A stretch of DNA of 64,000 nucleotides from a virus. Lineage: Duplodnaviria > Caudoviricetes. The position numbers and the translations under genes are program-made. Location: the IMG/VR virus record IMGVR_UViG_3300032312_001422, positions 32,001 to 96,000 of that record; one strand, 5' to 3'. This document shows positions 40,948 through 50,110 of the stretch, piece after piece; the stretch's first letter is position 1, and each line of letters opens with the position of its first letter. The notes below the pieces were generated by a model. The model had not been told where the DNA came from and did not search any database. It was given only the letters and a program-made list of their open reading frames with translations.

Positions 40948-41072
40948 TTTTGGTAAAAGGAATTTCATATTATGGTTGACTTGTAATTCGAATTAACCTA
41001 TAATATGAAATATGTTGGAGTGTGTCCAGCATAAATTGTAGTATTTTTTTAACTTAAAGATGGAGTTTTAAA

Positions 41073-41393
41073 ATGGATAAATTGTTCAAAGTTGGTGGTG
41101 TTTCTAAAACTAAAGGTCAGTATAAGGTGCGTTTTGCCGGTGACATGACTCGTATCAAGATCTTGGCCAAGACTGATAGTGATATCAATCTTATGGAATT
41201 GCCTAAGGCAATGTCCAAGCCAGAGTTGGTCACTTTCTTAAAGACCACAGAATTGTATGCCAATGGCGACTATCGTGCCGCAATTGATGCTGCTGATGCC
41301 AAGTACAATGGTACAGTAAGTGCCAAAGCTGGTAAAGTCAAGCCAAGTCTTGAAGCTATCAAGGCTCGTGCAACAGCCAAAGAAGCAGTATAA
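41073..41393 (+). CDS. Small basic hypothetical protein
   Basis: TTGACT-N17-TATAAT promoter, leader hairpin, GGAG RBS. Confidence 0.7.
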   Translation: MDKLFKVGGVSKTKGQYKVRFAGDMTRIKILAKTDSDINLMELPKAMSKPELVTFLKTTELYANGDYRAAIDAADAKYNGTVSAKAGKVKPSLEAIKARATAKEAV

Positions 41394-41431
41394 TAATCAA
41401 CGGGCACTCGCTGTGAAGCGTATAAGTCCCG

Positions 41432-41595
41432 TTATTATTGATAAGTGTTTGAGATGGAAACATGGGTATCGTCAGCAGACGTGTTGACTATACGGGCCTA
41501 ACTGGCGTGGAACAGGTCCTGACATAACTAACCAGACGCTATTGCCGGAAAGCATCCGACGCATAAATTGGTACTCAAGCACTTATTAATAATAA
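41432..41595 (+). ncRNA. Candidate structured non-coding RNA of unknown family
   Basis: 22-bp closing stem (41432-41453/41574-41595) enclosing several hairpins; no credible ORF; strand assumed. Confidence 0.55.
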
Positions 41596-41603
41596 ATATC
41601 ATT

Positions 41604-41774
41604 ATGGAACAATCTAAAAAACCCGTAGACCAATTTTACTATTCCGAGGACGAATGGGCAAGGTTAGGTTGTGGCCCTTTGCCACCCGAACGTGATCGTA
41701 ACTCACAATTACAAAATGCGGTGGCACGAGGCAATTCCCGTATTGACGGTAAGAATGTAAAAGGTTATAACTGA
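41604..41774 (+). CDS. Small hypothetical protein
   Basis: ATG 41604 just after TAAATA core. Confidence 0.55.
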   Translation: MEQSKKPVDQFYYSEDEWARLGCGPLPPERDRNSQLQNAVARGNSRIDGKNVKGYN

Positions 41775-47687: not shown

Positions 47688-48479
47688 ATGTCATTCTATG
47701 AAAAATTAGACTTTATCAAATATGATCATGACCGCCTGGTGACCGATGTGCAACAACATGTGTTCAGTCTGGGACAAGCTGTTATACAGGGCGAGGAATA
47801 TGAAACCGATGCCTACAAGGGTTTTGGTGGATGGAGTCTGCAGAGTCAAACCGGAGACTGGCAAGACGGCTGGGAATTTTTTCAAAACGAAGAAGGCACC
47901 ACTATTGAAGAAGTATTCTTTCCCAAGGATGCTAACAATTACACTACCTTAAAATACTTTAATATTGCACATTCTTTAGAGTACAAAAAGCCCACACAGG
48001 GCTATTGCGGTGAGATTGCCGAGGTGATTGATCAAATAGAGGCATTCGGCTTGACACCTAGACGAGCCAGAGTAACCTGTTTAAAAGCTGGTAGCAAAAG
48101 CCTAGTACACAGAGATTGTGGTGAAAACCAATACATGGCACGTATACACATACCCCTGATCACCAATCCTGAGTGTACTTTTACTGCCGAAGGAGAAACC
48201 TTATACATGGAACCCGGTACGGCCTACATGGTCTGGGTAAATGTGTGGCATCAGATTCGCAATGATTCGGAACAAGATCGATATCACATAATTATGGATG
48301 CTTACGATACCAGACATGTCACAGATAAGTTCAAGTACATGGGTGATATTAGCCAGTTGGAAACCTTTGCCAACGAATTGCGGCAACAGGTTGATCAAGC
48401 TGTTGTTACTGCAGATTTGGAACAAAAGTTTGAAACTGAATTGGCAAAATGGCGAACTAAATCCAAGGTTGACACATAA
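47688..48479 (+). CDS. Asp/Asn beta-hydroxylase-like 2OG oxygenase
   Basis: RARVTCL...VHRD...RIHIPLITNP...WHQIRN.S..DRYHII. Confidence 0.8.
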   Translation: MSFYEKLDFIKYDHDRLVTDVQQHVFSLGQAVIQGEEYETDAYKGFGGWSLQSQTGDWQDGWEFFQNEEGTTIEEVFFPKDANNYTTLKYFNIAHSLEYKKPTQGYCGEIAEVIDQIEAFGLTPRRARVTCLKAGSKSLVHRDCGENQYMARIHIPLITNPECTFTAEGETLYMEPGTAYMVWVNVWHQIRNDSEQDRYHIIMDAYDTRHVTDKFKYMGDISQLETFANELRQQVDQAVVTADLEQKFETELAKWRTKSKVDT

Positions 48480-48497
48480 GTTTAATAAGTATATAAT
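48469..48497 (+). promoter_or_regulatory. Consensus sigma70 promoter of tmRNA
   Basis: TTGACA-N17-TATAAT perfect match. Confidence 0.85.
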
Positions 48498-48503
48498 ATT
48501 AAT

Positions 48504-48803
48504 ATTGTTGTAATTCCTTCAAATTGAAGGCGCTGTGGACGGGAGTTCGATTCTCCCCGGGTCCACCAAAAGGAGATTAGCATGGATCATGAAGCTGTAT
48601 TGCTTGGTGCATTTGTTCTAATAGGATTAGTCCTAGTCTTTTTTTGATGGGCCCGACCGGTTTCGACATGGTGAGCTAGAAGAGAAGGAAACAGGACACA
48701 GATAGTCCTAAAAAGTAAATAACGTAAACGCAAACGACGAACAGTTCGCATTGGCAGCCTAACAGCCGCCTAGGGTAGGAAATACCTCGTAACAGAAATC
48801 ACC
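48504..48803 (+). ncRNA. ssrA: Circularly permuted (two-piece) tmRNA
   Basis: T-arm GGGAG-TTCGATT-CTCCC and CGGGTCC-A-CCA (ends 48568) precede 5' end GGGCCCG (48649); G3:U70 pair; tag ANDEQFALAA-stop at 48730-48762; ends approximate. Confidence 0.9.
48582..48647 (+). CDS. 21-aa hydrophobic peptide ORF inside tmRNA intervening segment
   Basis: AGGAG at 48571, MDHEAVLLGAFVLIGLVLVFF-stop. Confidence 0.45.
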   Translation: MDHEAVLLGAFVLIGLVLVFF

Positions 48804-48823
48804 AGAGCCCCTTCGGGGGCTCT
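48804..48823 (+). terminator. GC-rich hairpin after tmRNA
   Basis: AGAGCCCC-TTCG-GGGGCTCT. Confidence 0.75.
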
Positions 48824-48844
48824 AATATTTCCATACAAACACAC

Positions 48845-50110
48845 ATGAAAAAAACGTCACTGACAACCATTGCCGCCAGTACAATTGGCACAGTATTTGA
48901 ATGGTATGATTTTGTTATCTTTGGCTTGGCCAGTGTTCTTGTTTTTAATAAATTGTTTTTTCCAAACATTGATCCAGCTCTGGCCCTGGTAGTGTCAATG
49001 CTGGCCTATGCGGTGGGCATTGTAGCACGACCATTGGGTGGTATCATCTATGGCATGATAGGCGACAGGTTTGGTCGAAAACGCATGTTGACCACTACCA
49101 TGTTGCTTATGGGCATCAGTACTTTTATAATTGGTGTGTTGCCTACATATGATGCTATTGGAATATGGGCACCTGTTATTTTGATCTTGCTAAGAATTAT
49201 ACAAGGTATTGGCATTGGCGGCGAGTGGGGAGGAGCCAGTGTTATAGTACAAGAACATGCACCCGACAACCGTCGTGGTTTTTATTGTAGTTTTGTACAA
49301 ACAGGACTGCCTATGGGAATGTTAATGGCATCGGGTATATTTGCTGTGCTGAATTTGATGTTGAGCGAACAAGAGTTTCTTGCCTGGGGGTGGAGAATCC
49401 CGTTTCTGTTGAGTGCAGTCTTGGTGATTATTGGCACAGTTCTTAGACATCAAATTTTAGAAACTCCGGTGTTTTTAAAACTAACACCTCCCACAAATCC
49501 CATTAACGAGCTATTTACAAAATATCCAACAACCTTGTTCAAAGGTATCGGACTTAAAATAACAGAAAGTGTTTGGTTTTTCATAGTCACAGGTTTCATT
49601 GTCGGCTATGCTGTAAACAATTTTAATATACCAAAAAAAGATCTGTTACAAATTGTAATGATGGCCAATGCTGTCAGTATTGTGTGGACCGTGATAGTGG
49701 GTTACGTGTCAGATCTAATAGGACGACGTCCAATATTTTTCTTTGGATCTGTTTTTACAATGATCATGCCGTTTCCATTATTTTATTTGGTTGGCACCGG
49801 CGAGTTTGCAATGATTGCCACAGCAATGATAATAGGACAATGTATTGGTAGTACCACAATGTTTGCTGTTTTATCATCATACCTGCCAGAGATATTTCCT
49901 CCTAGTGTACGAAGCATAGGCAGTAGTTTGAGTTTCCAACTTGGAGCCGCTGTAACCGGTGGCATAGTTCCTGTGTTGGCCGCCTGGGCAGTTGGATACT
50001 GGGGTAGCAACTATGCTGTTTGTATCATCATGATGCTGTTTGGTGCAATTACTTTTGTATCTGCTTACAGGTCTAAAGAAACATTTCGCTTGGCGACAAA
50101 TAAATTATGA
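48845..50110 (+). CDS. MFS transporter, metabolite:H+ symporter (ShiA/ProP-like)
   Basis: GTVFEWYDF, RPLGG..G..GDRFGRK, QGIGIGGEWGG, SDLIGRR; 12 TM. Confidence 0.92.
   Translation: MKKTSLTTIAASTIGTVFEWYDFVIFGLASVLVFNKLFFPNIDPALALVVSMLAYAVGIVARPLGGIIYGMIGDRFGRKRMLTTTMLLMGISTFIIGVLPTYDAIGIWAPVILILLRIIQGIGIGGEWGGASVIVQEHAPDNRRGFYCSFVQTGLPMGMLMASGIFAVLNLMLSEQEFLAWGWRIPFLLSAVLVIIGTVLRHQILETPVFLKLTPPTNPINELFTKYPTTLFKGIGLKITESVWFFIVTGFIVGYAVNNFNIPKKDLLQIVMMANAVSIVWTVIVGYVSDLIGRRPIFFFGSVFTMIMPFPLFYLVGTGEFAMIATAMIIGQCIGSTTMFAVLSSYLPEIFPPSVRSIGSSLSFQLGAAVTGGIVPVLAAWAVGYWGSNYAVCIIMMLFGAITFVSAYRSKETFRLATNKL

What the first reader, a model, noticed from the sequence alone, without database searches (positions are those of the whole stretch)
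41399..41595. Unassigned structured RNA closed by a 22-bp stem
TTATTATTGATAAGTGTTTGAG (41432-41453) pairs with CTCAAGCACTTATTAATAATAA (41574-41595) with two G:U pairs. The 120 nt inside contain ATG-GAAA-CAT, GTCAGCA-GACG-TGTTGAC and GGGCCT/AGGTCC, whose loop (CTGG, GCGT) can pair downstream (CCAG, ACGC) as a pseudoknot. A further GNRA-capped hairpin (41399-41433) precedes it. It is GC-richer than its flanks, has no credible ORF, and lies just upstream of the radical SAM locus. Possibilities: RNase III-processed sRNA, 6S-like or protein decoy, or ribozyme.
Basis: partly seen in the sequence, partly recalled or inferred. Interest (0 to 1): 0.65.

Follow-up and report, generated by a model that had tools for sequence, protein, structure and literature searches.

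The report
New pseudoknotted jumbo-phage small RNA
The stretch is the gene for a real, compactly knotted RNA of about 150 bases, carried by many uncultured giant lake phages and matching no catalogued RNA family; its long closing stem carries the cutting signature of the host enzyme RNase III, but what the released RNA does is untested.

Summary
The structure is confirmed; two details are corrected. Window 41432-41595 belongs to a family of at least 141 distinct members (47-100% identical), one copy per genome, in T4-like freshwater jumbo phages, with no Rfam match. Covariation supports a ~21-bp closing stem, six inner arms and a 5-6-bp pseudoknot (94.5% of cells paired; five exchanged pseudoknot types). 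The ATG-GAAA-CAT hairpin and CTGG/CCAG pairing are not supported. The 5' GNRA hairpin is a separate element of the upstream gene, and there is no link to the radical SAM gene. Most relatives sit inside tRNA arrays. The stem carries a symmetric RNase III proximal-box pattern, shared by 16 neighbouring modules with other cores, predicting cuts at 41441|41442 and 41587|41588 (146-nt RNA). The RNA is accessory (absent from five near-complete relatives) and has no co-occurring phage protein, so I favour a trans-acting RNA binding a host factor (~0.4) over ribozyme or ligand sponge. No expression data. The scan noted this stem system, and probably this family, earlier on other DNA.

The parts
40976..41004 (+). 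sigma70-like promoter, likely source of the transcript that carries the RNA
   Evidence: 11/12 consensus match; use inferred
41073..41393 (+). 106-aa conserved phage protein gene of no known family; its 3' side is a landing site for exchangeable RNA modules
   Evidence: 61 related loci; no Pfam or PHROG hit; contents of the site vary
41399..41433 (+). GNRA-capped hairpin with an internal loop; separate 3' element of the 106-aa gene, at the position where other relatives have a terminator
   Evidence: inner stem covaries and keeps GNRA; present without the RNA in L004, L014, L020, L022
41432..41453 (+). P1 5' arm; RNase III proximal-box pattern at 41437-41439 and 41442-41445; predicted cut 41441|41442
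   Evidence: 22/22 pairs with both-side changes; box pattern
41454..41462 (+). variable A-rich linker, absent in many members; not a conserved hairpin
41463..41465 (+). P2 5' strand, pairs with 41528-41530
   Evidence: GC/AU/GU exchange at the middle pair, 47 of 47 cells paired
41466..41493 (+). P3/P4 arm: conserved GGUA and CUA at the base, C.U mismatch, 7-bp variable stem, GACG loop at 41478-41481
   Evidence: 95.6% paired, 7 of 11 pairs with both-side changes
41494..41519 (+). P5: 6-bp stem, 4x4 internal loop, pseudoknot 5' strand at 41504-41509
   Evidence: 99.7% paired; five pseudoknot types
41520..41530 (+). conserved URANAYAAC linker running into the P2 3' strand
   Evidence: 136 of 138 members
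41531..41540 (+). P6 5' strand (41531-41534) followed directly by the pseudoknot 3' strand (41535-41540; 5 bp in this copy)
41543..41572 (+). P7/P8 arm with asymmetric loop and 5-nt cap, conserved AAAU linker (41565-41568), P6 3' strand (41569-41572)
41574..41595 (+). P1 3' arm; predicted cut 41587|41588, giving a 146-nt RNA (41442-41587) with a 2-nt 3' overhang
   Evidence: inferred from E. coli rules in PMC1540722
41592..41598 (+). ATAAATA motif resembling a T4-type late promoter (own knowledge), in front of the 56-aa ORF 41604-41774; not part of the RNA fold
   Evidence: sequence; motif is strand-biased in the genome, 57 vs 14; a TAAATA motif precedes most homologues of the ORF

Best explanation
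This is a gene for a stable, trans-acting phage RNA delivered as a cassette. (1) Shown by comparison: the + strand folds into a ~21-bp closing stem around a compact core in which P2, P6 and the pseudoknot are formed by one continuous strand, with fixed helix lengths and conserved junction bases (probability about 0.95). (2) Inferred: it is co-transcribed with the upstream gene here, or with tRNAs in most relatives, and host RNase III cuts the middle of the stem on both strands. This releases a 132-153-nt RNA with an 11-12-bp terminal helix and leaves flanking tRNAs with short trailers and leaders for normal trimming (about 0.75). (3) Inferred, weakest step: the released RNA works by shape, binding and tying up or modulating a host protein or RNA-protein machine, most plausibly one acting on translation or anti-phage RNA cleavage, as an accessory host-takeover factor (about 0.4).
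For: Covariation: 94.5% of cells paired, 46 of 59 pairs with both-side changes, slid controls 34-42%; the pseudoknot was not in the model used for aligning, and its four central pairs hold in five sequence types across 136 members. Strand: G:U 306 vs A:C 25; 1 of 1057 neighbouring tRNA/tmRNA genes is on the opposite strand. RNase III: box score 6.2-6.5 of 8 vs 3.8 shuffled (maximum 4.8), other registers 4.4 or less, also on 15 stem clusters; 16 recurrent modules with other cores score 5.66 vs 4.64 +/- 0.12; rules from PMC1540722 and PMC3867540. Predicted cuts leave 4-5-nt trailers after CCA in 25 of 38 cases and 8-13-nt leaders in 61 of 79. Trans action: no constant neighbouring gene; no protein of this genome tracks with the RNA; absent from five near-complete relatives; no long variable single-stranded guide region.
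Against: The RNase III register was noticed after viewing the stem logo; the outer box position 1 fits in only about 20%, and no distal box is conserved. The rules come from E. coli while the host is probably a betaproteobacterium (beta-type tmRNA). An unfiltered set of stems gave only a weak signal (5.13 vs 5.02). Nothing identifies a binding partner. The co-occurrence test used only 3 negative and 5 positive genomes, and this genome is about 80% complete.
Confidence: 0.45

Rival explanations
1. The core is a ribozyme of a new class that cleaves or ligates itself or another RNA.
For: Compact pseudoknot with conserved junction bases. The strand order of the 3' two-thirds (stem, 6-bp loop pseudoknot, A-rich linker, two further stems) parallels pistol (PMC6154101). 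Location among tRNAs recalls theta ribozymes (own knowledge).
Against: The junction equivalent to pistol's G-U cleavage dinucleotide is a 5-nt A-rich linker. No Rfam hit. The core is insulated from the tRNAs by a 21-bp stem with its own processing signature, so cis cleavage would not mature them.
Confidence: 0.12
2. The RNA is a free aptamer that sequesters a small molecule, such as a nucleotide alarmone or immune second messenger.
For: Riboswitch-like size, junction architecture and conserved unpaired bases, without an expression platform or constant downstream gene.
Against: No ligand clue in the gene context; no riboswitch family match; I know of no natural example.
Confidence: 0.13
3. Only the stem matters, as a processing signal that separates tRNAs; the core is a passenger or a stabilising fold.
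For: The same stem signature encloses many different cores. The tRNA CCA is paired to UGG inside the stem in 25 of 27 cases. L014 keeps the stem with the core deleted.
Against: The core keeps fixed helix lengths, a covarying pseudoknot and conserved single-stranded motifs down to 47% identity. This copy lies in a genome with no tRNA gene at default threshold.
Confidence: 0.12
4. It acts with a phage-encoded protein, as a scaffold, antitoxin or guide.
For: Three proteins (a peptidase-like protein, an HNH-like protein, a 136-aa unknown) occur in four RNA-positive genomes and in none of three negatives.
Against: All three are absent from this genome (80% complete). A few such hits are expected among hundreds of genes. 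No constant neighbour. No TROVE/Ro60 gene.
Confidence: 0.12
5. It is a cis-regulatory leader of the downstream ORF or radical SAM operon, or a DNA element (MITE).
For: It lies 8 nt before a 56-aa ORF and about 310 nt before the radical SAM gene.
Against: 83 of 141 members are followed within 15 nt by a tRNA. The downstream ORF usually occurs without it. Single copy. G:U bias marks RNA-level pairing.
Confidence: 0.03

Closest known systems
Phage T4 species 1 and 2 RNAs (rnaC, rnaD; NC_000866)
   Same: Small stable non-tRNA RNAs of 120-140 nt encoded in the tRNA cluster of a T4-type phage.
   Different: No match to the family model (no hit above 4 bits over either gene); different folds; rnaC has a T-arm-like 3' hairpin; neither has the 21-bp closing stem.
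GOLLD and ROOL RNAs (PMC12286853)
   Same: Pseudoknotted phage ncRNAs of unknown function, often near tRNA islands; ROOL is reported non-essential.
   Different: Four to five times larger, cage-forming, in Rfam; no match here.
RNase III substrates: T7 R1.1 / uR1.1 (PMC1540722, PMC3867540) and rRNA processing stems
   Same: About two helical turns; A-U pairs at proximal-box positions 2-4 with G-C excluded at position 2; twofold symmetry around the cut.
   Different: Here the stem brackets a small exchangeable RNA and often incorporates the upstream tRNA's CCA; distal box not conserved; cleavage untested.
Pistol ribozyme (PMC6154101)
   Same: Order of elements in the 3' two-thirds: stem, loop forming a 6-bp pseudoknot, A-rich linker, second stem, pseudoknot partner, third stem.
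   Different: No G-U two-nucleotide cleavage junction; no GCG after the pseudoknot; longer loop; extra P2-P4 domain; no Rfam hit.
Candidate structured RNAs from IMG/VR (Fremin et al. 2023, PMC10690425)
   Same: Same source collection; the family could be among the 10,006 unnamed candidates.
   Different: Not highlighted in the passages retrieved; supplement not held, so overlap could not be checked.

Membership tests
Any Rfam 15 family | covariance-model hit | tested here: not met
   no hit over the element in the window, in seven family members among ten loci, or in a distant member
RNase III substrate (E. coli rules) | helix of about 22 bp | tested here: met
   22 bp here; family median 21
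RNase III substrate (E. coli rules) | proximal boxes: AU/UA at position 2, AU at 3, no GC at 4, GC at 1, in symmetric register | tested here: met
   position 2: 97% in both halves; position 3: 93% and 68%; position 4: 100% and 83%; position 1: 93% inner but 18% outer; score far above shuffles
RNase III substrate (E. coli rules) | distal box about 11 bp from the cut | tested here: inconclusive
   no conserved sequence; PMC3867540 says the box is not conserved among substrates
RNase III substrate (E. coli rules) | cleavage with 2-nt 3' overhang | not testable with these tools
   needs end mapping or an in vitro assay
Pistol ribozyme | P1 loop forms a 6-bp pseudoknot with the P2/P3 junction | tested here: met
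   analogous topology
Pistol ribozyme | fixed-length G-U dinucleotide junction and G40-C41-G42 | tested here: not met
   junction is a 5-nt A-rich linker; bases after the pseudoknot vary
HDV-like / theta ribozymes | nested double pseudoknot with P3/L3 and catalytic C; G1 abutting the tRNA 3' end (own knowledge) | tested here: not met
   no P3/L3 equivalent; the linker has no conserved C; the core is separated from tRNAs by the stem
T4 rnaC / rnaD | sequence or structure similarity | tested here: not met
tRNA / tmRNA / Y RNA mimics | T-arm, CCA end, Ro60 partner | tested here: not met
   ARAGORN negative over the element; no TROVE gene; no T-loop motif in the alignments
6S RNA | long rod with a central bubble | tested here: not met
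   multibranched pseudoknotted fold; no Rfam hit
Riboswitch | constant downstream gene class and expression platform | tested here: not met
MITE | multiple copies, DNA-level inverted repeats | tested here: not met
   single copy; G:U 306 vs A:C 25; target-site duplications were not searched systematically

The most novel reading that the evidence does not exclude
The core is the first example of a new catalytic or small-molecule-sequestering RNA class, which jumbo phages release with host RNase III from a plug-in cassette in tRNA-type transcripts and use against host defence or stress signalling.
Probability: 0.2. Interest if true: 0.9.

Novelty: new variant of a known kind. Interest (0 to 1): 0.6.

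Why it matters
Stable non-tRNA RNAs in phage tRNA clusters have long been known (T4 species 1 and 2; GOLLD, ROOL), and GOLLD and ROOL still have no described function. This family is small enough to synthesise, has a covariation-defined fold, more than 140 natural variants and base-exact predicted ends, so structure, partner and activity can be tested directly. The shared stem signature also gives a rule for finding the other uncatalogued RNAs that these phages carry.

Tried and rejected
Rfam at permissive thresholds: only chance miRNA hits nearby. BLAST against cultured phages: none. Model search of five cultured jumbo phages (PA5oct, Vibrio 2.275.O, Phosso, XacN1, Atu_ph07): none, with no positive control in that call. 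T4 rnaC/rnaD: no match. GTDB genomes: one pattern found nothing, the other gave one mis-binned phage contig and one truncated contig end. Phage protein partner: none found. An RNase III register with the conserved AG as distal box was dropped because it puts a G-C pair at proximal position 2 in window-like members. By-eye resemblances to SRP helix 8, group I and II intron cores, RNase P P4, SAM-II and kink-turns were rejected because the motifs are not kept across the family (recalled consensus, not formal tests). Literature searches found no description; the library lacks most subscription papers.

Full report
Setting. The window lies in a 288,815-base linear virus record, about 80% complete. 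Its capsid protein is 67-69% identical to those of Pseudomonas phage PA5oct and Vibrio phage 2.275.O, so it is a T4-type jumbo phage. A permuted tmRNA matching the betaproteobacterial model at 48455-48853 suggests a betaproteobacterial host. The genome has no tRNA gene at default threshold.

Observation. The 22-bp stem is there with two G:U pairs and is the longest such stem in the genome. The region folds far better than shuffles on the + strand (z -4.7). Rfam has nothing for it.

Family. Loci fetched through the two flanking proteins gave the first homologues. Four DNA patterns in viral contigs and one in metagenomes and two covariance models extended this to 141 distinct matches, 138 of full length, down to 47% identity with the window copy, median 61%. 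Every genome checked has one copy. Five near-complete relatives lack it, so it is accessory. The patterns bias the sample: about 100 members were selected for the GGUA, GACG and CUA motifs, so the conservation of those motifs rests on the other 52.

Structure. On 52 distinct members the structure P1, P2, P3/P4, P5, pseudoknot, P6, P7/P8 gives 94.5% paired cells and 46 of 59 pairs with both-side changes, against 34-42% for slid partners. The alignment was fitted to the nested helices, so those counts lean in their favour. The pseudoknot was not modelled, and its four central pairs are kept in five different sequence types in all 136 members parsed. One strand, 41528-41540, pairs in succession with three partners (P2, P6, pseudoknot), which suggests a continuous stack (inference). 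Unpaired motifs URANAYAAC and AAAU are kept in 136 and 132 of 138. The GNRA hairpin 41399-41433 belongs to the upstream 106-aa gene: it covaries on its own and precedes other modules or none.

Context. 130 of 141 members have a tRNA or tmRNA within 2 kb, on the same strand in 1056 of 1057 cases; 83 have a tRNA starting within 15 nt of the 3' end and 43 a tRNA ending near the 5' end (relaxed ARAGORN threshold). The window copy belongs to a minority downstream of the 106-aa gene, a site that in relatives holds other stem-closed RNAs, a plain terminator, or in L014 the stem with the core deleted. No protein family neighbours more than 22 of 152 loci. This rules out a leader of the radical SAM gene.

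Processing signal. The arms of P1 vary freely except at two groups of positions. These match the E. coli RNase III proximal box (G-C, A-U or U-A, A-U, A-U or U-A; G-C inhibitory at position 2; position 4 next to the scissile bond; PMC1540722) in twofold symmetry around the middle of the stem. The score is 6.5 of 8 for 133 members and 6.2 for 15 stem clusters, against 3.8 for shuffled pair order and at most 4.4 in other registers. I saw the register in the logo first, so I tested it on other data: 16 recurrent stem-closed modules with other cores from the same clusters score 5.66 of 7 against 4.64 +/- 0.12. An unfiltered set full of chance stems showed little. The predicted cuts here are 41441|41442 and 41587|41588. 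In tRNA arrays they leave 4-5 nt after the upstream CCA (25 of 38) and 8-13 nt before the downstream tRNA (61 of 79), and the CCA itself pairs with UGG in the stem in 25 of 27 cases. I found this before reading that earlier scan notes report the same stem system; those notes are not independent evidence.

Function. Shown: conserved fold, strand and context. Inferred: release by RNase III. Open: activity. The variable bases are paired and there is no guide-like segment, so antisense action is unlikely. No protein of this genome is shared by the positive genomes and missing from the negatives; three proteins fit that pattern for four other positives but are absent here. I therefore favour binding to a host factor (0.4), ahead of ligand sponge, new ribozyme, phage partner or passenger (about 0.12 each). 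The 3' two-thirds has pistol-like strand order but lacks pistol's cleavage junction. It works like the stable accessory RNAs of phage tRNA clusters but is not a member of T4 rnaC/rnaD, GOLLD or ROOL.

Novelty. No Rfam family and no paper found; it may be an unnamed candidate in PMC10690425, whose supplement I could not read. The scan has noted look-alike stretches in other genomes. Verdict: a real, undescribed RNA family with a new fold within a known category; interest 0.6.

Noticed in passing
L004:3358-3436, L015:3370-3445, L024:3360-3440: A different ~75-nt stem-closed module (core starting CCCGAACC) at the same site; no Rfam hit; by eye the same stem signature.
   Followed up: partly
L013:2469-2702, L006:3367-3608, L022:3370-3665: A ~190-nt core starting GGTTACC inside a 23-bp stem; recurrent; no Rfam hit.
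   Followed up: partly
L004:3440-3625, L006:3645-3945, L012:3600-3880, L013:2715-2920: A large conserved ORF-free module ending GCAGAGCA that often directly precedes this RNA; no Rfam hit.
   Followed up: no
L014:3021-3060: Empty cassette: the closing stem is kept, the core is replaced by a 5-nt loop.
   Followed up: partly
L316:3688-3901: Bacteroidota MAG contig (rpmF- and plsX-like ORFs, recognised by eye) ends in tRNA-Ser followed by a truncated copy 95-97% identical to phage copies; chimeric assembly or insertion at a tRNA end, unresolved.
   Followed up: partly
L315: Contig in a Haliscomenobacter MAG is a mis-binned phage fragment (tRNAs, permuted tmRNA with the same tag peptide as the window's, this RNA).
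   Followed up: yes
L106, L107, L117, L152: Four members replace the GACG tetraloop by a UGAUC loop, the only alternative seen.
   Followed up: no
window:48455-48853: Permuted two-piece tmRNA, tag ANDEQFALAA; its intervening segment contains a short ORF-like stretch.
   Followed up: no
window:28443, 28799, 39620, 39900, 48460, 51613, 62287: Repeated ~56-nt sigma70-like promoter elements (families D1 and D3).
   Followed up: no
window:41908-44283: Radical SAM gene followed by an Asn/Cys-repeat protein and then oxygenase-type genes; not linked to the RNA.
   Followed up: partly
window:12565-12651: tRNA-Gln(TTG)-like call only at relaxed ARAGORN threshold.
   Followed up: no
G000:C1:6141-6252 (outside the window): The only other 18-bp-or-longer stem on the + strand of the genome, with 5 G:U pairs, enclosing about 76 nt.
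   Followed up: no
L377:14507-15055: HNH-like ORF about 265 nt from the RNA on the opposite strand in G045; homologues lie far from the RNA in G051.
   Followed up: partly
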